Part shown: positions 1-13,400 of the stretch, one piece after another
Numbering within the stretch: position 1 is the stretch's first letter
How the letters are laid out: each line of letters opens with the position of its first letter
Assembly (NCBI GenBank): GCA_963511655.1
Contig: CAUPJV010000001.1
Coordinates: 132,987 to 196,986 of the forward strand
Source of the DNA: an uncultured Aquabacterium sp.
GTDB lineage: Bacteria > Pseudomonadota > Gammaproteobacteria > Burkholderiales > Burkholderiaceae_C
Length of the DNA: 64,000 nucleotides
Reading direction: 5' to 3'
Notes under the pieces: generated by a model
The model's input: the letters and a program-made list of their open reading frames with translations, nothing else
What the model was told of the DNA's origin: nothing
Databases searched by the model: none
Translations under genes and position numbers: made by a program

Positions 1-621
1 CTGTCTGTCCAGCAAGGCCTGGATCACGTGCGCGAACTCGGCTTTGGCCGGCGTGGGGTAGGGGTTGTTGTCATCGAGCCGAGCCTGGTCTGTGCGGGCT
101 CGCGACGCGGGGATCTGCACGGCCTTGAGGGCCCACCGGGCCAAGGTGCCGCCGAGGTCGATCTGCAGCTGCTTGCGTGCCCGAACCCAGCGGGCTCGGG
201 GGGTGGGATAGGCGTGCGTGTCCATCAGCCACAGGGCCTGGAGCCGGTCGTCATGCAGCGCTGCGGCCATCCCGTGGTGGGCGCCCGAGCAGATGCCCGC
301 CAGCGCGAAAGACCGGACCTGCGCAACGCGCTGGAGGTGGTCCATGGCAGCCTGCAGATCGACCACGGCCTGCCTCTCGAAGCTCAGGCCTTCATCGGAG
401 GCTTCGCTGTCGCCCAGGCCAGAGAGGTCCAGGCGCAGCACGGTGAAGCCCAGTTCGGCCAGCTTCCGGGCCAGCTTGACGTTGATGCGATGTGGCCCCA
501 TGCGGGGAACCACCCCTGCGTTGAGCAGCAGGACGGCGGTGCACCTCGCCACGCCGCTTGGGCGTGTGAGGGTGCCCACCAGGCGAGAGCCAGGCCCGAA
601 TGTGAGGATGTGCTCGTTCAC
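1..621 (-). CDS. Alpha/beta-hydrolase-fold protein with Cys nucleophile elbow (exosortase-associated hydrolase 1, TIGR03100-like); 3' end truncated by window edge
   Basis: Not in the ORF track; translated by hand. GTG start at 621 overlaps the TGA of the upstream gene (GTGA, 618-621) and the frame stays open to position 1: MNEHILTFGPGSRLVGTLTRP...LLLNAGVVPRMGPHRINVKLARKLAELGFTVLRLDLSGLGDS...ALAGICSGAHHG...; the elbow is G-I-C-S-G (283-297). Confidence 0.85.
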   Translation of the reverse strand, partial: MNEHILTFGPGSRLVGTLTRPSGVARCTAVLLLNAGVVPRMGPHRINVKLARKLAELGFTVLRLDLSGLGDSEASDEGLSFERQAVVDLQAAMDHLQRVAQVRSFALAGICSGAHHGMAAALHDDRLQALWLMDTHAYPTPRARWVRARKQLQIDLGGTLARWALKAVQIPASRARTDQARLDDNNPYPTPAKAEFAHVIQALLDRQ

Positions 622-1415
622 GCTGCCTGTCCCCTCACAGCCGAGGCCAGGAGGCGCAGCAGTGACGGTGGCGCCAGCGCAGCGCCTGCTGCCTCTTCGA
701 CGTGCCAGGCCATGTCGATGTCGGTGGGCTGGTGTCGCCAGGCGAGACCCCGGCTGGTCAAGCTCGACGACAGTTGCTTGTCAGATGGCGTGAGCCGCGT
801 GGCGATGTGGTGGCACCCCTCCTGGCAGCGCGGCTGCATGGACGCAACCGAGACGGCCTGGAGTTCCTGGATCCAGGTGTCGCTGACCCCGAAGCCCAGC
901 GCCTCGCCTCGCAATTCGGGGGCGGGGCGGCGATCGTGGATGAAGGGGTCGAATGTGTGGCGTGCGTGGGCGGCGCCCAGCTCCCGCGCGTAAGCGGCAC
1001 CATCGAGCACCGGCTCCCAGAGCACGATGCGAACGGGCGTCACCGGGCTGCGCTCAGACGCCAGCAGGGCCAGGGTGCCCCCCAGGCGCGTTCCGACCCA
1101 GACGGTGGCCGAGGCCCGGGTGCGGCGCCCCATTTCCTCCTGCGCTGCCAGGATGTCGTTTTGCCACTGTGTGATCGAGCCGGCCGTGTCCTCGCCAGAG
1201 GACTCTCCAGTGCCGAGGTAGTCAAAACGCATCACAGGCATGCCCTGGCACGCCAGCGATTCCGCCAGCAGGCGGTGGAGCCGGTGGGTGCGAATGGCCT
1301 CCTGCCCAAAAGGTGCGCACAGCAGCACTTGCAAGCCGTGACGGTTTGCGCCTGTAGGGGGGTGGTAGACCCCGTGGAGCCGATGCTGAGAGGGGCCGAA
1401 GAAAAATGGTGTCAT
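618..1415 (-). CDS. Alpha/beta-hydrolase-fold protein with Arg at nucleophile position (exosortase-associated hydrolase 2, TIGR03101-like)
   Basis: LLCAPFGQEAIRTHR and RFDYLGTGESSG motifs; the elbow reads VWVGTRLGG (G-T-R-L-G at 1080-1094) instead of G-x-S-x-G; lies 36 nt downstream of the megasynthase stop. Confidence 0.8.
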   Translation of the reverse strand: MTPFFFGPSQHRLHGVYHPPTGANRHGLQVLLCAPFGQEAIRTHRLHRLLAESLACQGMPVMRFDYLGTGESSGEDTAGSITQWQNDILAAQEEMGRRTRASATVWVGTRLGGTLALLASERSPVTPVRIVLWEPVLDGAAYARELGAAHARHTFDPFIHDRRPAPELRGEALGFGVSDTWIQELQAVSVASMQPRCQEGCHHIATRLTPSDKQLSSSLTSRGLAWRHQPTDIDMAWHVEEAAGAALAPPSLLRLLASAVRGQAA

Positions 1416-1451
1416 GGAAGAACAGTCCGGGGCGTCTTGGCTGCGTTCAGC

Positions 1452-4400
1452 TCAGCGCCCCAACCAGCGACTGAGCCACCCGCCCTTTGCAGGTCGGCTG
1501 GCATGTTGATCCGCATGCTGATCGGCGTGCCGGTCCGAACCCGATCCGCCATCATCGGCCAGTTTGGCGCCGGACAGAGGGGACGCTGACGAGGACGATC
1601 CCTTGTCTGCCGAAGCGGCAAGCTGCCCCAGGGTTTCGAAGATCAATCGGCGCACGTGCAGGGTGAGTCCGGTGCGCCGCTTGATTTCGGTGACCGCTCG
1701 CATGGCCAGCAAGGAGTGACCGCCCAGGTCGAAGAAGTTGTCATCGAGGCCGATGTCATCGGTGTCGATCAGCTCCTGCCAGACGGCGGCCATCGTCACT
1801 TCCAGCGGGGTGGCGGGCATGCGCTTGTTGTGCCTTGCGGCAGCGGGCCGGCTCGCTGCGTGGTTCGGGCGGGGCAGGGCGGCGCGGTCTACCTTGCCAT
1901 TGGGCAGCCGGGGCAAGGCGGGCAATGACACGATGTGCTGCGGCAGCATGTAGTCGGGCAAGCGCGAGGCCAGCATCGATGTCACGGCTTTCCCGTCCCC
2001 CAGGTCCTGCCCGTTGCGCGGCACGCAGTACGCAACCAGGCGCACGTCGCCGGGCTGGTCCTCGCGCGCCAGCACGACGGCCTGTCCGATGACGGTTTGA
2101 CTCAGCAAAGCGGCCTCGATTTCGCCGAGTTCGATGCGGTGCCCTCGCACCTTGACCTGGTGGTCCAGGCGTCCCAGGTGTTCCAGCGTGCCATCCGCGA
2201 GCCAGCGGCCAAGGTCGCCTGTCCGGTAGACGCGGGCCTCGGGCTGGGGGCTGAACGGATCCTGGACGAAGCGCTCTGCGGTTAGTTCCGGCCGATGGAG
2301 GTAGCCCGAGGTGACGCCATCACCGCCGATGCAGATCTCGCCCGGCGTGCCGATCGGGCAGGGCTGGCCCTGTGCCGTCAAGACGTGAACCTGGGTGTTC
2401 GCGATCGGTTGGCCGATGCGCACGCCCCGTTCCGGGTGCTCGACGCGCCAGCAGGTCGACCACACGGTGGTTTCCGTCGGGCCGTACATGTTCCAGACCG
2501 CGCCGCAGCGTTCCAGGAGGGCGCCTGCCAGCGAGGCTGGCAAGGGCTCGCCCCCGACCAGCGCGATGAAGCCGGGGGCACCTTGCCAGCCCGACTCGAC
2601 TAGCGCATGCCAGGTGCTGGGCGTGGCCTGCATCACGTCGATGTCTTCCTCCACCCGAGCCTTGAGCAGGAAGGGGTCGCGGCTGTCGTCTCCGCGACAC
2701 ATGACCACCTCTGCACCGACCAGCACGGGCAACAGCAACTCGAGCACGGAGATGTCGAAGCTCAGCGTGGTCACCGCAAGCAGACGTTGATGGGCCTGCA
2801 GGCCTGACTCACGCGCCATGCTGCGCAGGAAGTTGACCACGCTGCCATGTGGCACCACCACGCCTTTGGGCAGGCCGGTCGAGCCGGATGTGTAGATGAC
2901 ATACGCGGCATCGGAGATGCTGGCGTCGAGAGCTGGATCGGCCGCCAGGGGGGTATCCGGCTGCTGCAGCAGCAAGGCTTCATCCAGGTCTGTCAACAGG
3001 GTTTTGTCGCGCGGCCAGTCCAGTGCATGCAGGGTGTCCGAGCGGCTGACCACCCAGGCCAGGCGGGCATCCTGCGCCATGTGGCTCAGGCGCTCAGCGG
3101 GGTAGTCGGGGTCCAGTGGCACGTAAGCAGCGCCAGACTGAAGGATGCCCAGCACGGTGGCCAGGAGGTCCGGGCACCGGGGCATGCAAACCCCCACCAG
3201 GGCGCCCCTGCCCAGTCCATGCGCACGCAGGTGTCTTGCGATCTGCGTGGCGCGAGCCCACAGCTCGGCGTGGCTGAGGGAGCGTTCACCAGCCTGGCTG
3301 ATGGCGATGTCCGTCGACCCGACGTGCGGCTGTTGCCGCAGCAGATCGACCACGTTCTTTGCAGCGGGCCAATCGGTGGTGGTGTTGTTCCAGCGGCGAA
3401 GGTCTTCGCGCTCACGGTCGCAGAGGATGTCGATGTCTGACAGCGGGGAGCCAGCCAGATCCGGCAGCCGCCGCAGCAAGGTGGACAGCCGGTCGCCCAG
3501 CAACTGTGCGCTGGATGCGTCCAGGATGTCCGCGTTGTAGCTGATGGTGAACTCGATGCCCTCAGGCGTTTCCACGCACCACAGGGCCAGGTCCTGGGTG
3601 GTGCCCACCATGGGCACATCGAAGCGTTCGTGCACCACATTGCCCCACTTGGGCTGGCGTTCGCGTGCGTCCTGATAGGAGAACAGTGCCTGATGCAGCG
3701 GCGCCCGGCTTGCATCCCTGGGCAGCTGCAGGCTGCGGACGAGGTGATCCAGCGGGACATCGGGGTGCGAGAGGGCGTCGATCGCCTGACGCTGCACCTG
3801 CGTGAACCAGTCGGACACGGTCAGGTCGCCCCTGGGTCTCAGCCTCAGGGGCAGGGTGTTGACGAAGAAGCCGATGAGTGATTCGATTTCGGCGTGATCA
3901 CGTCCACGCACCGGGGTGCCGATGACCAGGTCCTCCTGTCCTGTGAGCTTGTGCAGCATCAGACCGAAGGCGCTCAGCAGCGTCGTGAAGAGCGTGCGTC
4001 CCTGACCTCGGGCGACATCACGCAGCTTGCGCGTCGTGTCGGGGTCGAGGTGGAAGGCGCACGAGCCGCCTTGTCCTGACATCACCGGTGGCCGGGCGCG
4101 GTCAACGGGCAAGGCCAGTGGCGATGGAGGCGGCGTCATCTGAGTCAGCCAGAACGCGGTCTGCGCCTGCAGCACTTCGCCGCTCATCCACTGGTTGTGC
4201 CAGGCTGCGAAGTCACCGTAGGTGACGGGCAGATCGGGCAAGCGAGCAGGCCGACCAGTCAGGGCGGCGTCGTACAGCTCGGACAATTCATCGTTGAAGA
4301 CCTGGAACGACCAGCCATCCCAGATCAGGTGGTGAACCAGGAAGAAGAGGACGTGCTCCTGGTCGGCGAGCTTGAAGAGCCGGATGGCAAACAGGGGGCC

Positions 4401-7400
4401 TTGTTCGAGGTCCAGGGGCCGTACAGCGATGTCATCCATGCGCTGACGCAGGCTGCCTTCTCTCTGGTTCTCGGGCAGGTGGCTGAGGTCATCGAGCGGC
4501 AGCAGGGACGCGTGCAGCGTGTTCGAGACGCGCTGCAGGTCGCCTGTCGGCGTGCGTTCGATGACGGTGCGCAGGGCGGTCTGCCTCAGCATCAGCTGCT
4601 GCCATGCCTGATCAAGCGCCTGCACGTTCAGCTCACCCACGAGCCGGTGGGCAGAAGGGATGTGGTGCGCGACGCTGTGGGGCGTGACGTTCTCGATGTA
4701 CCAGATGCGCTGTTGCATCTGGGACAGGGGGGCCGTGACGGCGTGCTCGCGGTGCGGGATGACCGGGGTGGGTGTGGCGGTTGTTGGCGCCGACTGCGTG
4801 TCGGCGGCATCGGCGGCATCGGGGGCGTGCGTGCGCCCTTCTCCGTCAAGCGCCAGGGCCAGTCGGCGAGGCGTGGGGTTGTCGAAAATCGTGTGCACGG
4901 TCACCGCGCGACCGCTTCGCTTGCGGATCTGCGTCACAGCCCGCATCACCAGAAGGGAGTGGCCGCCTCGATCGAAGAAGTCTTCGTCCAAGCCGAACCG
5001 ATCCAGCCCCAGCAGGCCGCGCCAGATCTCGGCGACGATGTCGGCCACGGAGTCAGCCACGGATACGTCCACTGACGCCGTCGGCTCCGCTGGCTTGTCA
5101 GCGGCAACAGTGGACGATGGCGTGACGGGCGCACCAAGGGCAGGCGGCGGTGCGTCTGCGCCAGGCGTGAAGTCATAACCCGACAGTGGGCGATCCGGGT
5201 CGGTCACGATGTCGCGCAGCATGCGTTCGAGGGCCTTGCCGAAAGCCGCGACGGTTTCGGTGTCGAGCACGTCCGCGTTGAACGTGAACACGAACTCGAT
5301 GTGGTTGCGTGTCTCCACGCACCACAGGGACAGGTCCTGCGCCGCTCCCAGCATGGGGGTCGGCATGCGCTGGTGGTCGACGTTGCCCCAGCGGGTGGTG
5401 CGTTCTCGCACGTCCTGGTAGGAGAACGAAGCCTGGTGGATGGGCGGGCGGCTGCGGTCGCGGGGCACCTGCATCACGTGCACCAGGTGATCGAAGGGCA
5501 CGTCGGGGTAGGAGAAGGCTTCCACCACCTTGCGGTGCACGGCGTCCAGCCAGGCTGGCAGAGTCATGTCCGCGCCGGGCTGCATGCGCAGTGGCAGCAT
5601 GTTGACGAAGAAGCCCATGAGGTGCTCCAGCGCCGGTTGCTCCCGTCCGCGAACCGGGGTGCCGATGACGAAGTCGTTCTGTTTGGTGACCCTGTGGAGG
5701 GCGAGGGCGTAGGCGGCCAGCAGGGTGATGTAGAGGGTGCGACCTCGTTGACGGGCCTGCGTACGCAGTGCGTCGGTCACGTCCTTGGCCAGGTTGAACT
5801 GGAACGAGCCGCCTCGGCCAGACATGACGGCTGGGCGCGGACGGTCAAGGGTCAGGTCCAGTGGTGGTGGCAGCGGCGTGAGCTGTTCGCGCCAGTAGCC
5901 CAGCTGACGCTGCAGCTCTGGCCCGGTCATCCACTCGTTGTGCCACGCCGCGAAGTCGCCGTAGCTGACCGTGAGGGCGGGCAGCCCTGGGGGCCGGCCT
6001 TCCAGGCAGGCGGCATAAAGCTCAGGCAGATCCACGTACAGCAGGTCAAAGGACCATGCGTCCCAGATCAGGTGATGAGCCTGGAAGAGCAGGCCGTGCT
6101 CTTCTGGCGCCAGGCGGAACAGGCGCGCGGTGAACAAGGGGCCTTTTTCCAGGTCATAGGGGGTCTCGACCAGCTCGGCGATGACCTTGTTCATCGCCGG
6201 CTTGCGCTCGTCCTCCGGCAGGTGACTGAAGTCGTCAAAGGGGATCAGGCTGAAGGGCAGTTCAGGCAGGATGCGCTGTACATCGCCATCCGGCGTGCGC
6301 GCGATCACCGTGCGCAGCACGCTTTGACGCTGGACGAGGAGCCGCCAGGCCTGGTTGAACGCTTCCACATCGAGCGGCCCCAGCAGGCGATGCCCGGTGG
6401 GGATGCTGTGAACCACGGTATCCGGCGTCAGGTTCTCCAGGAACCAGACGCGCTCCTGCATCTGCGACAAGGGTGCGCTCGATTGGTCGGCGCGAACCGG
6501 GATGGTGTCGGACTGACCCGAGCTGACGCCCTCGCCTGCCTCAGCAGCCTTGAGTTGCAGCAGCGCTGAAGCCAGGCCAGCAGGCGTGGGGTGATCGAAG
6601 ATCACACGCAGACCCGGGCGTTGACCCAGTGCTTTGGCCAGCGCCGCCGAGAGCTTGGCCGCCATCAGCGAATGCCCGCCCTGCTCGAAGAAGTGGTCGC
6701 TGTCGCCCAGGCGTTCGCGCCCGAGCAGCCGGCCCATCTCCCGAGCCACCGTGTCGATCGCCTGAGCGAGTGGGGTGCCTGCTGTCGCGGCGTCGGCGCG
6801 CGCAGGATGCGGTGTTTCAGAGCGAGGGGTCGGCAGCGAGGGGTGGGCCGTGCCGCTCGGCACCGGAAGCGCCTTGCGGTCGACCTTGTTGTTGGGCAGC
6901 AGGGGAAGCGCAGGCAGCACCAGCACCGAACGGGGCAGCATGTAATCTGGCAGTGTCTGCCTCAGGCTGTTGCGCAAGGCGCCCGTGTCCAGTGCTGCGC
7001 CCGCCTGAGGCACGACGTAGCCAATCAGGGCCATGTCGCCCGGCGTGACTTCGCAGGCGATGACCACCGCGCGCGACACACCCGCCAGCCTCTCCAGCTG
7101 GGCTTCGATTTCACCGAGCTCGATTCGATAGCCGCGGATCTTGACCTGGAAGTCCATGCGTCCCAGGTGCTCGATCTGACCGTCCTCGCGCCAGCGTCCC
7201 AGGTCCCCGGTGCGATAGACCAGCCGGCCGGGGCGCGGGCCCCATGGCAGCGCCACGAAGCGCTCTGCCGTCAGGTCGGGGCGACCGTGGTAGCCCAGGG
7301 CCACGCCATCACCACCGATGCAGATTTCGCCCTCTGCACCCACGGGCACGGGACGCAAGGCTTCATCCAGGATCCAGACCTGGGTGTTGTCTATGGGGCG

Positions 7401-10400
7401 CCCGATGGCGATCCGGCCTGATGCATCGGTGATGTGCGACAGCGTCGACCAGACCGTGGTTTCGGTGGGGCCGTACATGTTCCACACATCGACCCCCTTG
7501 GCCAGCAAGGCCGAGGCGAGTGCGGCGGGCAAGGGCTCGCCTCCGACCAGCGCCTTGAAACCCTGAGGGGGTTGCCACCCCGCATCCAGCAGCAGGTGCC
7601 AGGTGGTCGGTGTGGCTTGCATCACCGACACATGGTGTTGGCTGGCCAGTGCCATGAGGGCCTCACCATCCATGGCCTGATCACGCGTGGCCAGCACCAC
7701 GGTCCCGCCGGTGACCAGTGGCAGCAGCAACTCGAGCACCGCGATGTCGAAGCTCAGGGTGGTGACGGCCAGCAGGCGGTCTGAGGGCTGCAGCCCTGGC
7801 TCACGCCGCATCGAAGCCAGGAAGTTGCACACCGCCCGATGAGGCACGGCCACGCCCTTGGGGCGACCGGTCGAGCCCGAGGTGTAGATCACGTAGGCCG
7901 GGGCCTGGGTGTCGGTGTGGACCGGCAGACCGGTCGCGTGCGCAGCTTCAAGCAGGGCCGCCTCGCGATCGAGCTGCAGCTGCGCGCTGTGCGGGAGCCC
8001 GCAAGCCTCTGCGCAGGTCGAGTGTGTGACCACCAGCGTGAGGCCGGCGTCCTCGGCCATCATCTTCAGGCGCTCACCGGGGAAGCCGGGGTCCAGTGGC
8101 ACGTAGGACGCACCTGTCTTCAGCACGCCGAGCATCGCTGGCAGCAGGTGACGTCCACGTGGCAGGCTGATCCCGACGCGTTGACCTGGCGCTGCGCCAC
8201 GTGTTTGCAGCAAACGTGCGATCTGGTTGGCCTGCGCTTCCAGTTCCTGATAGGTCAAGGTGCCATCCTGGCTCACCACGGCCAGTTGCGTGGGGGTCTG
8301 CATGGCCTGACGGCTCACCCAGGCTTCCACTCTCGCGTGGGCATCCAGGGGCCGGTCGGTCTGATTCCACGTCAGCACGCGTGGGTCCGGCCCTGCGGGG
8401 CAGGCATCCGCGCCATCTGCCAGGATGTGCATCAGGCGGTCGACCAGCGCCTGCGCGCGGCTGTGGCTCAGGTACTCGCTGCTGTGGTGCAGATCGAGCG
8501 TGAGGGCGTCAGGCTGCTCGTGAAAGTTGAAGAAGACCTCGCTGAGCAGCCCGCGCTTGCGGCCCTCGTGCATGGACGCCAGCAAGGGGGCCCAGCCCGA
8601 CAGGTCGACTTTTGGGTTGAGGTTGAAGTAGATCGAAGTCAGGGCGGGCTTGCTGCCTTCGGCCTGCAGGCCGATTGCACGAGCGGCGGTCCCCTGGGTC
8701 ATCAGGGGGAACTCCATCGCGTCCATCAGGGTCGACTTGATGCGTCGCACCCGGTCAGCCAGCGGCTCGCCTTCGCGCGTCTGGATTCGCACCGGCAGGT
8801 CCAGCACGCCATCTGCAAGCAGGGGCCCATGGCGTTGCAGGCTTTGCGCGGCGAAGGGGATGCTCACGACGACATCGCGTCGACCGCTCTCGCGCCAGAT
8901 CAGTTCGGCCACGGCATGCAGCAGCCACTGAAAGAGCGTGGCGCCATGGGATCGGGCCTGCTCGCGCAGCCGGTCGAGTTGCCCGCCGTCCAGCCGGGCC
9001 CGAACCGTATCGCCCGCAAACGTTCGGGGCCCGGCGGGCGCCTGATCGCCGAGTGAAACGGCCGCGGGCAGGTTCTGCAGCGCCTGCTGCCAATGCCGCA
9101 CGCTGGCTTTTCCCTCCTCATGCTCGAATCGGGCGTGTTCGGTCTCTGCGAAGCGAAGCGCCGACTCGGCGGCGCCCCATTGTGGGGTCCGGCCTTCTCG
9201 GCGGGCGTGATACGCCTGGGCGAGTTCTGCGTTGAAGACGCTGGATGCCCAACCGTCGAAGACGAGGTGGCTGGCCACCACATGGACCACCACGCGGCCG
9301 TCGGCCAGACTCAGGATGCTGGCGCGGGCGAGCGGTGCCTGATCGAGGAGGAACACGGTGGCGCTGGCCTGCCAACTGTGCTGATCCAGGGCCTGATCGC
9401 TGTCCGGACAGACCCGCAGATCGACCTCTTCGACGGGCACCAGTGCGCTTGGCTCCAGGATCTGACGAGGCTGATCCAGGTCGAACCGCAGCTTGAAGGC
9501 GTCATGTCGTTGCAGGACGTCCTGCAGCGCCAGCTTCAGTGCAGGGCGATCAACGTCGCCTCGCAGACTCACGCAGAAAGATTCGTTGAGCGCCACCCGG
9601 GCCGCCGGGTCGTAGATCGCGGCCAGCCAGCGTTCGGTCTGTCCGGGCGTCAGGGGCGATGACGTTGGGGCCGAGGTGGCAGGAGGGGCGGGTGGGCGTG
9701 TCACGCCTGCGCAAGGCGAGCCTGCGCGCGGGTCGATGAAGCCCAGCGACATCAACTCGCTCATGATCTCGATGAAGGTGTCGGCAATGAGGTCGCAGTC
9801 GCTGTCGGTCATGGCCTCGGTCACGAAGTGGCCGAATTGCTCGTACAGGTGCAGGCCCTTGAAGCGAGCCAGGTAATAGAACAGGCTGATGTTGCGGGCG
9901 TTGTCGTCCCAGCTCAGGCGCCACAGCGAGGCGCAGTGCACGGCCTTGACCGGCGCGCGGCGCTCGGCGAAGGCGGTGTTGATGCGCTCGACCATGCGCT
10001 GCGTGCGCCCGTTGATGGCCTGGTACAGCGCGTGCCCGCCCTGTTTGATGTGCAGCAGCGTGGCGCGCGCCGCGGCCAGGGCCAGCGGGTGGCGCACGAA
10101 GGTGCCCGCGAAGTAGGTGACGCCCGCTTCAGGGTGCGAGTCGTCGCCGTACTGCCAGTGACCGCCATCCAGCGCATCCAGCCACAGGCTGTTGCCCGCG
10201 ATGGCCGCAAACGGCAGCCCGCCGCCGATGATCTTGCCGTAGGTGGCGATGTCGGCGCGCACGCCGTAGAACTCTTGCGCGCCACCCGGGGCCACGCGGA
10301 AGCCGGTGACGACCTCGTCGAAGATCAGCGCAGCGCCGCCTTGTGTGGCGATTTCGCGCAGCTGCTGCACGAAGGCCGTGGGCTGCAGCGTCGGGTACTT

Positions 10401-13400
10401 GTTCTGGATCGGCTCGATCATGATGGCCGCCAGTTCGTGCGCGCACTGGCGCAGCACCTCCAGCGACGCGGGGCTGTCGTAGTCCAGCACCAGGATGTTT
10501 TCCACCGCGTTGGCCAGGATGCCCGGGGCGGCCGACAGCGAGCGCAGCTGCTTGGTGCCGCGCACGATCACCTCGTCGAAGATGCCGTGGTAGCTGTTGT
10601 TGAAGATGGCGATTTTCTTGCGGCCGGTGACGGTGCGCGCGATGCGCATGGCGCCCATCACGGCCTCGGAGCCGGTGTTGCAGAAGCCCACGCGCTCCAT
10701 GCCCGTGAACTCGCGCATCAGGTCGGCGACTTCAGCGGCCATGGGGTGCTGGGGGCCGACCTCGATGCCCTTGTGCAGCTGCTCGACCATGGCCTGTGTC
10801 ACGTCGGCCGGCTTGTGGCCCAGGAAGTTGGCGCCGAAGCACGACAACAGGTCGATGTACTCGTTGCCGTCGATGTCCCAGATGCGCGCGCCGTCGGAGC
10901 GGTCGGCCACGATGGGGTAGACCAGGTCCTTCCACATCGGGTTGAAGCCGGTGACCACGCGCGGGTCGGCCATGGACTTGCGGTGTCGCTGGCTGAAGGC
11001 CTTGGAGGCGCCGGAGCGCTGGTTGTAGCGGCGGATGAAATCGTCGATCCACTGCTGCTGGGCCGGGGTGAACTCGTTGTTGGCAGACAGCACGATGCGC
11101 GCCGAAGCCCCGAACGGTTTTTCCACGAGGGCGTTTTTGGCGGGTTGCTCGGTGGCGGGGGGTGTGATGGCGGGTGGTGCGATGGCGGGTGGTGCGATGG
11201 GCGCGCTGGGTGCCCCCAAAGGCATCGCCGCGATCGGTGCGCTGGCCGCGCCGGGCGTGGGCTGTCCCAGCAAGGCGAGCTGCATCTGCATGATCTGCAT
11301 CTGCTGCTGGATGACGGCCATCACGGCATTCTGGGAGCCGGGCTGAGTCGGCGCGACCGGCATGACCAGCGTCTGCACGGGCGCGAAGGCCACATCGCCA
11401 GCCTGCAGAGCAGCCGCAGCCGCAGACGTAGACGCAGCAGGCTGCGCCGCCTCCGGTGCGAAGCGATCGGCGGGCACCTGCCCGTCCAGGAACACCGCCA
11501 GCTTGCTCAAGGTGTCGACGTCTTCCAGCAAGCGCCTGAAGCGCATCTTCACGCCGAAGGCCTTCTCGAACTCCAGCGTCGCCTGGGTGAGGGACAGCGA
11601 GTCAAGGCCCTGGTCGACGAAGGTGGCGTTGCGGTCGACCGTTTCAGGCGGCAGCCCGGCCACGTCACCCAGGATGCGGACGATTTCTTGCTCGATGCGG
11701 GGCAGTCGATTCATGGTGATCGGTGGTTGAGGCGGGGCGGTGGTGGTCGGCAAAGGATCGGGCGTCGCAGCCAGGGACACGGTCGCGACCGCGCGTCGCG
11801 TGAACCAGTGCCGCTCGCGGCGGAAGGGGTAGGTGGGCAGGGCCACTCGCGGGGTGCCGGTCGGCACGGGCCAGGCCACGTCCACGCCCTGCGACCACAG
11901 CTGGCCCAAGGCGCTGAGCGCATGACGCACGGGCGCCAGGTTGGATTGAGCGGCCTGGGCCGAGCTGAGCAGGGGCACGATGGCGGGCACCGCACCGTCA
12001 ACGCGGTGTTGTCGGACCAAGGCCGTCAAGGCCTGGCCGGGGCCGACCTCGATGAACAGCACGTCGCCCGGTGCCTGAGCCAGGGCTTGCTCGGCTTGCA
12101 CCGCCCGGCTGAAGGCCACGGGCGCGCGCACCTGGCGGGCCCAGTAGCCCGGGTCGGTGGCTTCGTGGTCAGACAACAAGGCGCCGCTGATGCACGAGTA
12201 CACCGGGATGCGAGGCGCGGCCAGCGTGGCGTTTGACAGGGCCGCGTGCACGCGCGGCAGGGCGCCTTCCATGGAGGCGCTGTGGAATGCGTGCGAGACC
12301 TTCAGGCGCGTGACGCCGATGTCTTGCGCCTCCAGCGTTCGCGCCAGCGTGTCGATGTCGGCGTGCGACCCAGCGACCACGCTGAGCTGCGGGGCGTTGA
12401 GCGCGGCCACGTCGATGCCGACGGGCAAGAGGGGTTGCAGCGCATCCAGGCTTGCCCGCACGGCCAGCATGGCGCCAGGCGGTTGCGCGAACATGGCCGC
12501 GCCGCGCTCCACCACGGCTTGCATGGCATCGGTGGGCGACATCACGCCCGCGTGGCAGGCCGCGGCGTACTCACCGATGCTGTGCCCGATCATGGCGTGG
12601 GGCTGGATGCCCAGGCTGTCGAGCCAGGCAGCCAGCGCGTGAGACACCGCAAACAGCGCCGGCTGGGCGTGGCGGGTTTCAGCCAGCAGCGCGGCGGCCT
12701 GGGCGTCGTCGGGTGCGGCTTGCGTCAGCAGGTGACGCAGGGTGGCTGCGAGCTCGGCGGGCGCGGCCGACAGGCAACGCTCGAAGGCGTCCCCGAAAGC
12801 CGGAAAGGCCTCGACCAGCTCGCGCGCCATGCCGGGGTGCTGGGAGCCCTGGCCGGGAAACAGGAAAACCAGGCGCGTGGGCCGCTTGACGCCAACCGTG
12901 CCGCTGGGAGACGGGGCGGCGGCGAGGGCGCGCAGGGCGTCCACCGCCTCAGCCGCGTCGCGTGCCACCACGGCTGCCCGCACCGGCATGGCCTGGCGGC
13001 CGCGCATCAAGGTGGCGGCCACGGCGGACAGCGGGGGCACGGGGTGTGGCGGTGGGCTGCTGTGCAGCTTGCCGGCCGCCAGGTGTTCAGCGAGGTGCTC
13101 AGCGAGGTCAAGCGCACGCTGTTTCAGCGCCTCGGGGTGGCGCGCCGACAGGGGCAGCAGTTGCAGGCCGCTGCCCGCGTCGACACCCAGCGGCGTGGCC
13201 GGCAGTGTGACAGGCAACGTGGCAGGTGGCCCCTCTTCGACGATGACGTGCGCGTTCGTGCCCCCCACGCCGAAGGAGCTCACCGCGGCGCGGCGCACCA
13301 CCGCACCGCGCGCCCAACCCAGCGGCTGGCCACTGACCTGAAACGGCGTGGCGGCAAAGTCGATCTGCGGGTTGGCTTGCGAGAAATGCAGCGTGCCCGG

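What the first reader, a model, noticed from the sequence alone, without database searches (positions are those of the whole stretch)
1..1810. Chain release probably delegated to the hydrolase pair, possibly onto a surface polymer
Seen: the megasynthase ends at a T domain plus a ~50-aa low-complexity tail, and the next two genes are alpha/beta-hydrolase folds. Known: a pair with these elbow types (TIGR03100/TIGR03101) is found together in PEP-CTERM/exosortase-A exopolysaccharide loci near acyl-carrier and ligase genes. Inference: the pair may act as a trans-acting thioesterase or acyltransferase that moves the peptide onto a polysaccharide or other envelope acceptor rather than releasing a diffusible metabolite. 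No exporter or resistance gene is visible in the window, although the operon is truncated.
Basis: partly seen in the sequence, partly recalled or inferred. Interest (0 to 1): 0.8.

Follow-up and report, generated by a model that had tools for sequence, protein, structure and literature searches.

The report
Cys/Arg hydrolase pair unloading TE-less NRPS
A peptide-making megasynthase with no release domain is followed by two coupled hydrolase-like genes, one with an active-site cysteine and one catalytically dead; this uncharacterised pair most likely takes the finished chain off the enzyme, and relatives in other bacteria sit inside sugar-polymer operons.

Summary
The 4982-aa PKS-NRPS (window 1452-16400, minus strand) ends in a carrier (T) domain plus a 49-aa tail and has no thioesterase. 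The next two genes overlap by GTGA and both fold as alpha/beta hydrolases.

- **Family placement.** Their best HMM hits are TIGR03101 and TIGR03100, but at less than half the trusted cut-offs. They form a sister clade to the canonical exosortase-A pair, which this genome also carries elsewhere as ACP-hydr2-hydr1.
- **Active sites.** The first protein has Arg at the nucleophile position and no conserved His. The second has an invariant Cys111, with Asp134 and His251.
- **Distribution.** In 56 of 78 related loci, from several phyla, the pair directly follows a thioesterase-less terminal T domain. In Hydrogenophaga the first protein is fused to that T domain. Release by the pair is therefore well supported.
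- **Acceptor.** Transfer to a glycan or envelope acceptor is only partly supported. This cluster has no glycan genes. It adds a cupin, a membrane-anchored SGNH protein, an O-antigen-locus-type methyltransferase and a PPTase. At least 14 related NRPS loci do hold glycosyltransferase, flippase or sugar-nucleotide genes, and Lautropia keeps its pairs only in polysaccharide loci.
- **New here.** The NRPS tail ends in a MinD-like amphipathic motif.
- **Earlier finds.** This scan has found the pair at least 8 times before on other DNA.

The parts
1452..16400 (-). Hybrid PKS-NRPS megasynthase, 4982 aa. Domain order is A-T-KS-AT-T-aminotransferase-C-A-T-C-T-C-A-T. It has no thioesterase, reductase or terminal condensation release domain.
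   Evidence: ORF. Pfam domain content. Core motifs and the single terminal LGGHSL. A1 is an amino-acid-type adenylation domain (best PDB matches LgrA and TycB).
1614..1787 (-). Terminal carrier (T/PCP) domain; phosphopantetheine serine Ser4896 at window 1713-1715.
   Evidence: PF00550 hit at residues 209-266 of the C-terminal 319 aa. Coordinates.
1455..1601 (-). 49-aa low-complexity linker tail after the last T domain.
   Evidence: Translation. Comparable A/P/S-rich tails of variable sequence occur in 55 related NRPS termini.
1455..1484 (-). Conserved C-terminal basic amphipathic motif GGWLSRWLGR. It is either a MinD-type membrane-targeting helix or a docking peptide for the hydrolase pair.
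   Evidence: The motif has the same G-hydrophobic-hydrophobic-x-R-hydrophobic-hydrophobic-G pattern as this genome's own MinD C-terminus, GFFKRLFGGK. The strict motif is present in 27 of 55 related tails against 9 of 3261 long ORFs of this genome. The tails are more amphipathic and more basic than the background. The motif is absent where hydr2L is fused to the T domain.
618..1415 (-). hydr2L: 265-aa alpha/beta-hydrolase-fold protein with Arg110 at the nucleophile position and no conserved His. It is a probable non-catalytic partner or adaptor for the T domain.
   Evidence: TIGR03101 at 88.1 bits against a cut-off of 202.75. AF2 pLDDT 94.7. The elbow residue is R in 58, G in 13 and A in 3 of 75 relatives, never Ser/Cys/Asp. 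It is fused in frame to the NRPS T domain in L048 and L055.
1..621 (-). hydr1L, N-terminal 207 of 274 aa (the rest lies left of the window, G000:C1:132783-132986). It is an alpha/beta hydrolase with a Cys111 nucleophile (G-I-C-S-G), Asp134 after strand beta6 and His251.
   Evidence: TIGR03100 at 85.2 bits against a cut-off of 168.45, full-length match. Cys is present in 78 of 78 relatives, His251 in 77 of 78, and Asp/Glu134 in 78 of 78. AF2 pLDDT 93.0, with the strand order placing C111 after beta5, D134 after beta6 and H251 after beta8. GTGA overlap with hydr2L.

Best explanation
hydr2L and hydr1L together form a two-subunit, trans-acting release enzyme. It stands in for the thioesterase domain that this PKS-NRPS lacks.

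**Inferred steps**
1. hydr2L is a catalytically dead alpha/beta-fold paralogue (Arg at the elbow, no His). It binds the terminal T domain or its tail and presents the phosphopantetheine-bound chain to hydr1L.
2. Cys111 of hydr1L (triad Cys111/Asp134/His251) attacks the thioester and forms an acyl-S-enzyme.
3. The chain is passed to a nucleophile.

**Destination.** Three things suggest the usual acceptor in this family is a membrane-proximal sugar or lipid-linked glycan rather than water:
- The thioester is kept on a cysteine.
- The last T domain carries a flexible tail ending in a MinD-like amphipathic helix.
- The pair is repeatedly embedded in glycan-assembly operons in other lineages.

In this Aquabacterium cluster the acceptor is not encoded nearby. 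The membrane-anchored SGNH protein and the TIGR04325 methyltransferase may act on the transferred product.

**What is shown:** gene order, coupling, fold, conserved residues, distribution and the fusion.
**What is inferred:** the complex itself, the acyl-Cys intermediate, the acceptor and the membrane tethering.
For: - **No other release function.** The NRPS has no TE, R or terminal C domain. Related NRPSs stop 48-113 aa after the carrier serine.
- **Adjacency.** In the best 80 of at least 492 related loci, the pair follows a terminal T domain directly in 56 of the 78 loci that could be scored. These span Burkholderiales, Alphaproteobacteria, Gemmatimonadota, Myxococcota and others.
- **Coupling.** The hydr2L stop overlaps the hydr1L start by 4 nt in 39 of about 75 pairs and by 8 nt in 11. 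In this window the overlap is GTGA.
- **Fusion.** In Hydrogenophaga L048 and L055, hydr2L is fused in frame to the NRPS, exactly where a TE domain would be.
- **Same order in the canonical family.** This genome's canonical cassette reads ligase (TIGR03098) / ACP / hydr2 (TIGR03101) / hydr1 (TIGR03100), with the same R and C elbows.
- **Active sites.** hydr1L has Cys in 78/78, His in 77/78 and Asp/Glu134 in 78/78 relatives. hydr2L never has a nucleophile at the elbow. Both models are confident.
- **Precedent.** Asp after beta6 is the arrangement of most NRPS TE domains, and Cys-nucleophile TE domains are known (SulM, ObiF; PMC11298585).
- **Glycan link.**
  - L077: pair followed by GT4, an unknown gene, GT2 and DegT.
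  - L086, L103, L110: pair followed by a Wzx-like flippase, with overlapping genes.
  - L084: GT4, GT4 and WecG, then NRPS and pair.
  - L080, L101: a second pair followed by WecG/Wzy.
  - L075, L093: GT4, Wzy and polysaccharide deacetylases.
  - Rhizobacter: UDP-glucose dehydrogenase plus an epimerase.
  - Lautropia G036 (99% complete) has the same TE-less NRPS with tail and PPTase. Its only two pairs lie in polysaccharide operons.
- **Membrane hints.** MinD-like tail. N-terminal TM anchor on the SGNH protein. The TIGR04325 methyltransferase family is otherwise seen inside a Leptospira LPS locus (PMC8055020).
Against: - Nothing here is biochemical. No acyl-enzyme, complex or product has been observed.
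- This cluster and its Aquabacterium orthologues contain no glycosyltransferase, flippase, MBOAT or exporter. A free small peptide released by hydrolysis fits this locus equally well.
- Glycan genes were found near only about a quarter of NRPS-linked loci, without a proper background control. They could instead glycosylate a diffusible product.
- The pair is soluble and cytoplasmic.
- The tail motif disappears in the T-hydr2L fusions. That fits a docking peptide at least as well as a membrane anchor.
- Cys-nucleophile alpha/beta hydrolases that simply hydrolyse also exist.
- The closest PDB folds are generic esterases with TM-scores of only 0.55-0.68.
Confidence: 0.6

Rival explanations
1. The pair is simply a hydrolytic (or cyclising) trans-acting thioesterase. 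It releases a free, diffusible small peptide-polyketide. The glycan genes seen elsewhere are unrelated neighbours or decorate a soluble product.
For: The Aquabacterium cluster has no glycan gene. Stand-alone alpha/beta-hydrolase release enzymes such as DcsB and GrgF appear among the fold matches. The pair is soluble.
Against: An invariant Cys rather than Ser. Operonic coupling to GT4, Wzx and WecG genes in several unrelated lineages, and the Lautropia arrangement. No exporter in the cluster.
Confidence: 0.25
2. The pair is an aminoacyl shuttle of the SyrC/CmaE kind. It loads the A-less T domain of the C-T module, or moves units between T domains, and does not release the chain.
For: This NRPS has an A-less C-T module, as do about 17 related ones. 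Cys-dependent aminoacyl transfer between carriers is known (SyrC, CmaE; PMC8748450).
Against: The pair is equally present where every module has its own A domain (L050, L052) and with minimal A-T or C-A-T synthetases (L110, L048, L084). Under this reading these TE-less lines would still have no release function.
Confidence: 0.07
3. The pair is an editing (type II thioesterase-like) enzyme that clears misprimed carriers. Release happens by another route.
For: It is a trans-acting alpha/beta-fold protein encoded next to an NRPS.
Against: There is no PF00975 match. A classical PF00975 type II thioesterase coexists with the pair in L086, L103 and L108. No alternative release domain exists in any of the lines.
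Confidence: 0.04
4. The adjacency is incidental. The pair works on a polysaccharide or another substrate independently of the NRPS.
For: Lautropia pairs sit in glycan loci away from the NRPS. One locus has thiolase-pair-PPTase with no NRPS nearby (L033/L049).
Against: 56 of 78 loci have the T domain directly upstream. T-hydr2L fusions exist. A PPTase co-occurs in at least 25 loci.
Confidence: 0.04

Closest known systems
NCBIfam TIGR03101 / TIGR03100, 'hydrolase 2 / hydrolase 1, exosortase A system-associated' (hypothetical equivalogs; no biochemistry found in the literature searched)
   Same: Best HMM hits for both proteins. Same gene order (carrier, hydr2, hydr1), same sizes, and the same Arg elbow in hydr2 and Cys elbow plus D-H motif in hydr1. 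Both sit beside an adenylating enzyme and a carrier protein.
   Different: Scores are 88 and 85 bits against cut-offs of 203 and 168. The proteins form a separate sister clade with 100/100 support. They are attached to a multimodular PKS-NRPS instead of a stand-alone ligase, ACP and decarboxylase. This locus is not in an exosortase/EPS region. Public records name relatives only 'alpha/beta hydrolase', 'dienelactone hydrolase' or 'hypothetical'.
Cys-nucleophile NRPS thioesterase domains (SulM, ObiF1; PMC11298585)
   Same: Alpha/beta-hydrolase fold. A catalytic cysteine takes the chain from the upstream carrier domain, and the thioester intermediate is used for non-hydrolytic chemistry.
   Different: Those are cis domains of PF00975 type with Asp after beta7, and they form beta-lactam or beta-lactone rings. 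Here there are two separate proteins of a different alpha/beta subfamily, the Asp follows beta6, one subunit is dead, and the last residue is not one that could form such a ring (inference).
SyrC / CmaE aminoacyl-S-carrier transferases (cited in PMC8748450; the Cys-based mechanism is from my own knowledge of Singh et al. 2007)
   Same: Stand-alone enzymes that take an aminoacyl group from a T-domain thioester onto an active-site Cys and hand it to another acceptor.
   Different: They are single proteins that shuttle between two carriers in mid-pathway. Sequence homology was not tested here. The pair occurs at the end of the line and without a free-standing acceptor carrier.
Carrier-protein-dependent aminoacylation of envelope polymers: DltABCD (D-alanylation of teichoic acids) and AlmEFG (glycine on Vibrio cholerae lipid A). 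From my own knowledge, not tested here.
   Same: An adenylating enzyme loads a carrier, and a transferase moves the residue to a cell-envelope glycoconjugate. DltD is a membrane-anchored SGNH-fold protein, like the SGNH gene of this cluster.
   Different: No MBOAT (DltB) or LpxL-type (AlmG) transferase is present. The donor here is a multimodular PKS-NRPS product, and the transferase candidate is a Cys/Arg alpha/beta-hydrolase pair.
MinD / FtsA C-terminal amphipathic membrane-targeting sequence
   Same: The motif is at the extreme C-terminus, behind a flexible linker, and is basic and amphipathic. It follows the pattern G-hydrophobic-hydrophobic-x-R/K-hydrophobic-hydrophobic-G, as in this genome's own MinD (GFFKRLFGG). 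The KS domain of the megasynthase would give two copies per dimer (inference).
   Different: It sits on an NRPS, which I did not find described. Membrane binding is untested. The motif is missing in T-hydr2L fusions, so it may instead be a docking peptide.

Membership tests
TIGR03100 (hydr1_PEP) | HMM score at or above the curated cut-off of 168.45 bits | tested here: not met
   85.2 bits, E 4.5e-24, full-length match 6-272/274. The genome's true member on contig C5 scores 287.8 bits.
TIGR03100 (hydr1_PEP) | Placement inside the canonical clade | tested here: not met
   21 canonical sequences form one clade (100/100). All 78 NRPS-type sequences form the sister clade.
TIGR03100 (hydr1_PEP) | Cys at the nucleophile elbow and a C-terminal D-H motif | tested here: met
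   G-I-C-S-G and D250-H251 align with G-L-C-D-G and D-H of the canonical copy.
TIGR03100/TIGR03101 pair | The two genes are adjacent, hydr2 before hydr1, next to a carrier protein and an adenylating enzyme | tested here: met
   T domain, then hydr2L, then hydr1L with a GTGA overlap. The canonical cassette reads ligase/ACP/hydr2/hydr1.
TIGR03100/TIGR03101 pair | Location in an exosortase A (XrtA) / PEP-CTERM exopolysaccharide locus | tested here: not met
   The flanks are Dus, deaminases and FtsX on one side, and cupin, SGNH, MTase and PPTase then ECH, TypA, TruB and InfB on the other. Exosortase-like genes lie on other contigs and score below the XrtA cut-off.
TIGR03101 (hydr2_PEP) | HMM score at or above the curated cut-off of 202.75 bits | tested here: not met
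   88.1 bits, and only the N-terminal half matches (3-144 of 265). The true member on C5 scores 210 bits.
TIGR03101 (hydr2_PEP) | Arg in place of the catalytic nucleophile | tested here: met
   G-T-R-L-G aligns with S-L-R-A-G of the canonical copy. R in 58 of 75 relatives, G or A in the rest.
Thioesterase domain family PF00975 (type I / type II TE) | Pfam PF00975 match with a Ser (or Cys)-Asp-His triad | tested here: not met
   No PF00975 hit for either protein at E <= 0.01. A genuine PF00975 protein coexists with the pair in L086.
SyrC/CmaE aminoacyl shuttles | Sequence homology, and a free-standing acceptor carrier protein in the cluster | not tested
   No reference sequence was compared. 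No free-standing carrier gene was seen among the seven cluster genes, but small ORFs were not searched exhaustively.
MinD-type membrane-targeting sequence | A C-terminal basic amphipathic helix behind a flexible linker | tested here: met
   GGWLSRWLGR compared with the genome's own MinD GFFKRLFGGK. Motif enrichment is 27/55 against 9/3261. Hydrophobic moment and charge are above background.
MinD-type membrane-targeting sequence | Actual membrane binding | not testable with these tools
   Needs a GFP-tail fusion or liposome co-sedimentation.

The most novel reading that the evidence does not exclude
An NRPS-made peptide is covalently grafted onto a lipid-linked or surface glycan. A membrane-tethered, thioesterase-less megasynthase hands its product, through a Cys/Arg alpha/beta-hydrolase heterodimer, to a sugar acceptor at the inner membrane. 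This would be a widespread but undescribed way of decorating bacterial polysaccharides or LPS with non-ribosomal peptide-polyketide units.
Probability: 0.35. Interest if true: 0.85.

Novelty: new variant of a known kind. Interest (0 to 1): 0.66.

Why it matters
Chain release decides what an assembly line makes and where the product goes. This pair would be a third general solution beside cis TE/R/C-terminal domains and single trans-thioesterases. It is a two-protein device with a cysteine enzyme and a dead paralogue.

The device is present in hundreds of loci across several phyla, and databases label it only 'alpha/beta hydrolase'. It also gives a testable function to the large exosortase-associated hydrolase 1/2 families, which have had no biochemistry.

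If the acceptor is a glycan, NRPS chemistry becomes linked to cell-surface polymer decoration. That would affect how such 'orphan' clusters are mined, because no free metabolite would be found. The MinD-like tail would be a simple way to localise a megasynthase at the membrane.

Tried and rejected
- **Natural hydr2L-hydr1L fusions.** I looked for these. The long ORFs that seemed to span both genes (L080, L101, L050, L057) are out-of-frame Arg-rich read-throughs in high-GC DNA, not fusions.
- **Fold search.** Foldseek against the PDB gave only generic esterase, monoglyceride-lipase and feruloyl-esterase matches for both models (TM 0.5-0.68). It gave no functional lead beyond 'alpha/beta hydrolase'.
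- **Literature.** Searches for the TIGR accessions, for exosortase-associated hydrolases and for NRPS membrane-targeting tails found no functional study.
- **Loader for A-less T domains.** Rejected as the general role, because the pair also serves lines in which every module has an A domain.
- **Editing thioesterase.** Rejected, because a classical PF00975 TEII coexists with the pair in three loci.
- **FAAL starter.** Rejected, because A1 is an amino-acid-type adenylation domain.
- **Neighbourhood clustering.** Greedy longest-ORF calling followed by BLAST clustering is crude. It included antisense ORFs and used strict coverage, so the count of loci with glycan genes is a lower bound and has no background control.

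Full report
**What is there**

The window is G000:C1:132987-196986 of a 3.64-Mb, 67% G+C genome of the genus Aquabacterium. On the minus strand, a single 4982-aa ORF (1452-16400) encodes a hybrid PKS-NRPS. Pfam finds three adenylation, three condensation and five carrier domains, plus a KS, an AT and a class III aminotransferase. It finds no thioesterase or reductase domain.

- The first adenylation domain is of the amino-acid type, not a fatty-acyl-AMP ligase.
- The last carrier domain covers residues 4872-4929, with Ser4896 in LGGHSL.
- A 49-aa low-complexity tail follows that domain.

After 36 nt comes a 265-aa gene (618-1415), which I call hydr2L. Its stop overlaps, as GTGA, the GTG start of a second gene, hydr1L. 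hydr1L runs off the window. Read from the genome it is 274 aa (L001:4797-5621:-).

The operon continues with a cupin/JmjC-like gene. Beyond it lie a divergent SGNH/GDSL gene with an N-terminal membrane anchor, a TIGR04325-family methyltransferase (171 bits, cut-off 80) and an Sfp-type PPTase. Housekeeping genes follow (ECH, a GGDEF response regulator, TypA, TruB, RbfA, InfB). On the other side of the NRPS are Dus, two deaminases and an FtsX-type permease. The cluster is therefore a compact seven-gene island with no exporter and no glycan gene.

**The two hydrolase-fold proteins**

| Protein | Best NCBIfam hit | Score | Trusted cut-off | AF2 pLDDT |
|---|---|---|---|---|
| hydr2L | TIGR03101 | 88.1 bits | 202.75 | 94.7 |
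| hydr1L | TIGR03100 | 85.2 bits (full-length match) | 168.45 | 93.0 |

The closest solved structures are generic esterases, with TM-scores of 0.5-0.68.

I compared 75-78 relatives of each protein.

- **hydr1L.** Cys111 in G-x-C-S-G is present in 78 of 78, His251 in 77 of 78, and Asp or Glu at position 134 in 78 of 78. In the model, Cys111 follows strand beta5, Asp134 follows beta6 and His251 follows beta8. An acid after beta6 is the arrangement reported for most NRPS thioesterase domains (PMC11298585).
- **hydr2L.** The elbow residue is Arg in 58, Gly in 13 and Ala in 3 relatives, and is never a nucleophile. No histidine is conserved. It is best read as a non-catalytic paralogue.

Both proteins lack signal peptides and membrane segments.

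**Relation to the exosortase-associated pair**

The same genome carries a bona fide cassette on contig C5:

- decarboxylase TIGR03099 (615 bits)
- ligase TIGR03098 (760 bits)
- an ACP
- hydr2 TIGR03101 (210 bits)
- hydr1 TIGR03100 (288 bits)

. That pair has the same Arg and Cys elbows and the same order behind a carrier protein.

In a maximum-likelihood tree, 21 canonical hydr1 sequences form one clade. All 78 NRPS-type sequences form its sister, with 100/100 support on both sides. The window's proteins are therefore relatives of the TIGR families, not members of them. Public records call their close relatives only 'alpha/beta hydrolase', 'dienelactone hydrolase' or 'hypothetical'. I found no functional study of either family.

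**Distribution and context**

A pattern scan of one genome per species found at least 492 relatives of hydr1L, and I mapped the best 80 loci.

- In 56 of the 78 loci that could be scored, hydr2L-hydr1L directly follows an NRPS or PKS-NRPS terminal carrier domain.
- The typical architecture is AT-aminotransferase-C-A-T-C-(A)-T.
- The taxa include Burkholderiales, Alphaproteobacteria, Gemmatimonadota, Myxococcota, Nevskiales and others.
- Most of the remaining loci are short contigs.
- These synthetases stop 48-113 residues after the carrier serine, which leaves no room for a release domain.
- The hydr2L stop overlaps the hydr1L start by 4 nt in 39 pairs and by 8 nt in 11.
- A PPTase accompanies the pair in at least 25 loci.

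Three observations narrow the function.

1. In two Hydrogenophaga genomes (L048, L055), hydr2L is fused in frame to the NRPS, behind the last carrier domain. That is exactly the position of a thioesterase domain.
2. The pair serves lines of very different size, including a bare A-T protein (L110) and single C-A-T modules (L048, L084). Its role is therefore not tied to A-less modules.
3. A classical PF00975 type II thioesterase coexists with the pair in L086, L103 and L108. The pair is therefore not the editing enzyme.

Release of the carrier-bound chain is the one function all these lines lack, and the pair always accompanies them.

**The acceptor question**

In this genome and its four Aquabacterium orthologues there are indeed none. 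Elsewhere the link recurs.

| Locus | Arrangement |
|---|---|
| L077 | pair, GT4 (overlapping), unknown gene, GT2, DegT sugar aminotransferase |
| L086, L103, L110 | pair followed by an overlapping Wzx-like flippase (Polysacc_synt_3) |
| L084 | GT4, GT4, WecG, NRPS, pair |
| L080, L101 | a second pair followed by WecG and Wzy_C |
| L075, L093 | GT4, Wzy_C, polysaccharide deacetylases and an epimerase next door |
| Rhizobacter (L052, L054, L061) | UDP-glucose dehydrogenase plus an NAD-epimerase |

That makes at least 14 of 56 NRPS-linked loci. This is a lower bound, and I could not set it against a proper background.

The most telling case is Lautropia. Genome G036 is 99% complete in 6 contigs. 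It has the same TE-less NRPS family (A-T-KS-AT-T-AMT, then C-A-T-C-T with a tail, then a PPTase, with a divergent SGNH gene). Its only two hydr2L-hydr1L pairs lie on another contig, inside polysaccharide operons. One operon reads sugar transferase, UDP-glucose dehydrogenase, pair, DUF218. The other reads Wzy, WecG, UDP-GlcNAc 2-epimerase, pair. In the tree these Lautropia copies are nested within the NRPS-linked radiation.

Within the Aquabacterium cluster itself there are two weak hints. The SGNH protein is membrane-anchored. The TIGR04325 methyltransferase belongs to a family that lies within the LPS locus of Leptospira borgpetersenii (PMC8055020).

The 'low-complexity' tail is a variable A/P/S-rich linker that ends in a conserved basic amphipathic motif. 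Here it reads ...AKGGWLSRWLGR. Elsewhere it reads, for example, KGLLGRLFGGRGESR, GWLRKLVGKLLP or GLFSRVLGRLGRR.

- The pattern G-hydrophobic-hydrophobic-x-R/K-hydrophobic-hydrophobic-G is that of the membrane-targeting helix of MinD. This genome's own MinD ends in ...PGFFKRLFGGK.
- A strict form of the motif occurs in the last 22 residues of 27 of 55 related NRPS termini. It occurs in 9 of 3261 long ORFs of this genome, and two of those nine are this NRPS and MinD.
- The tails are more amphipathic and more basic than ORF C-termini in general. Related sequences are not independent, so the p-values overstate the difference.
- I found no description of such a tail on an NRPS, and this scan had not noted it before.

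There are two readings.

- **Membrane anchor.** The tail places the last carrier at the inner membrane. The KS dimer would supply two copies, as a MinD dimer does (inference).
- **Docking peptide.** The tail binds hydr2L. The motif is absent in the T-hydr2L fusions and in the basal clades, and this is why I keep the docking reading open.

I put the membrane anchor at roughly 50% and the docking peptide at roughly 40%.

**Mechanism proposed**

hydr2L (dead, Arg elbow) binds the terminal carrier or its tail. hydr1L takes the chain onto Cys111 as a thioester and passes it to a nucleophile. Known Cys-based carrier-thioester enzymes include the SulM and ObiF thioesterase domains and the SyrC/CmaE shuttles (their Cys mechanism is from my own knowledge). 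These use the retained thioester for transfer or ring closure rather than hydrolysis.

I rate 'the pair is the release device' at about 0.8. I rate 'the acceptor for this locus is a glycan or envelope molecule rather than water' at about 0.4. The combined statement, as worded in the best explanation, I rate at 0.6.

**Novelty**

Trans-acting alpha/beta-hydrolase release enzymes are known. A conserved two-protein Cys/pseudo-enzyme device is not described in what I could search. It is sister to the uncharacterised exosortase-associated pair, and it sometimes sits inside glycan operons. It is a new variant of a known kind.

This scan has met the same pair at least eight times on other genomes, with concordant readings. 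Those are AI notes, not independent evidence. I re-derived each point above from this window and from fetched loci.

Noticed in passing
window 1455-1484 (minus strand), NRPS C-terminus: The NRPS ends in GGWLSRWLGR behind a flexible linker. The pattern matches the membrane-targeting helix of the genome's own MinD (GFFKRLFGGK). It is conserved in most related TE-less NRPS termini.
   Followed up: partly
G000 contig C5, 93728-98962 (locus L016:7729-12962); outside the window: The same genome holds a canonical cassette: decarboxylase TIGR03099, ligase TIGR03098, an ACP, hydr2 TIGR03101 and hydr1 TIGR03100. It sits next to dnaE and an AraC regulator and is not in an EPS locus. The exosortase-like genes are on contigs C26 and C51 and score below the XrtA cut-off.
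   Followed up: partly
L048:8935-10008 and L055:8956-10008 (Hydrogenophaga): hydr2L is fused in frame to the C-terminus of the NRPS (C-A-T-linker-hydr2L), in the place of a thioesterase domain. The amphipathic tail motif is missing there.
   Followed up: yes
L122/L123 (Lautropia G036 contig C6, 50852-64245), and L035, L036 (contig C2): Lautropia has the same TE-less PKS-NRPS family with tail, PPTase and SGNH. Both of its hydrolase pairs are in polysaccharide operons on another contig.
   Followed up: yes
L057, L066, L067, L080, L081, L091, L106, L107 (genes next to the pair): A Peptidase_S15 / PepX_C (X-Pro dipeptidyl-peptidase, CocE/NonD-type) gene accompanies the pair in eight loci. Its role is unknown.
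   Followed up: no
L086:8248-9000, and homologues in L103 and L108: A classical PF00975 type II thioesterase lies on the opposite strand between the NRPS and the hydrolase pair in an alphaproteobacterial clade. In that clade the NRPS lacks the amphipathic tail and the pair is followed by a Wzx-like flippase.
   Followed up: partly
L033 = L049 (Aquabacterium MAG), about 8957-12677: This locus reads thiolase, hydr2L, hydr1L, PPTase, with no NRPS within 10 kb. It is a context the release model does not explain.
   Followed up: no
window 3460-6480 (minus strand): The internal module is C-T without an adenylation domain, and its condensation motif reads HHLIWDA. About 17 related lines end in such an A-less C-T module. 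How that carrier is loaded is open.
   Followed up: partly
L052, L061 and Lautropia loci (cluster 8; for example L052:16832-18700:-, L105:12373-14499:-): A 600-700-aa protein family with no Pfam match is shared between the Rhizobacter NRPS-linked loci and the Lautropia polysaccharide loci.
   Followed up: no
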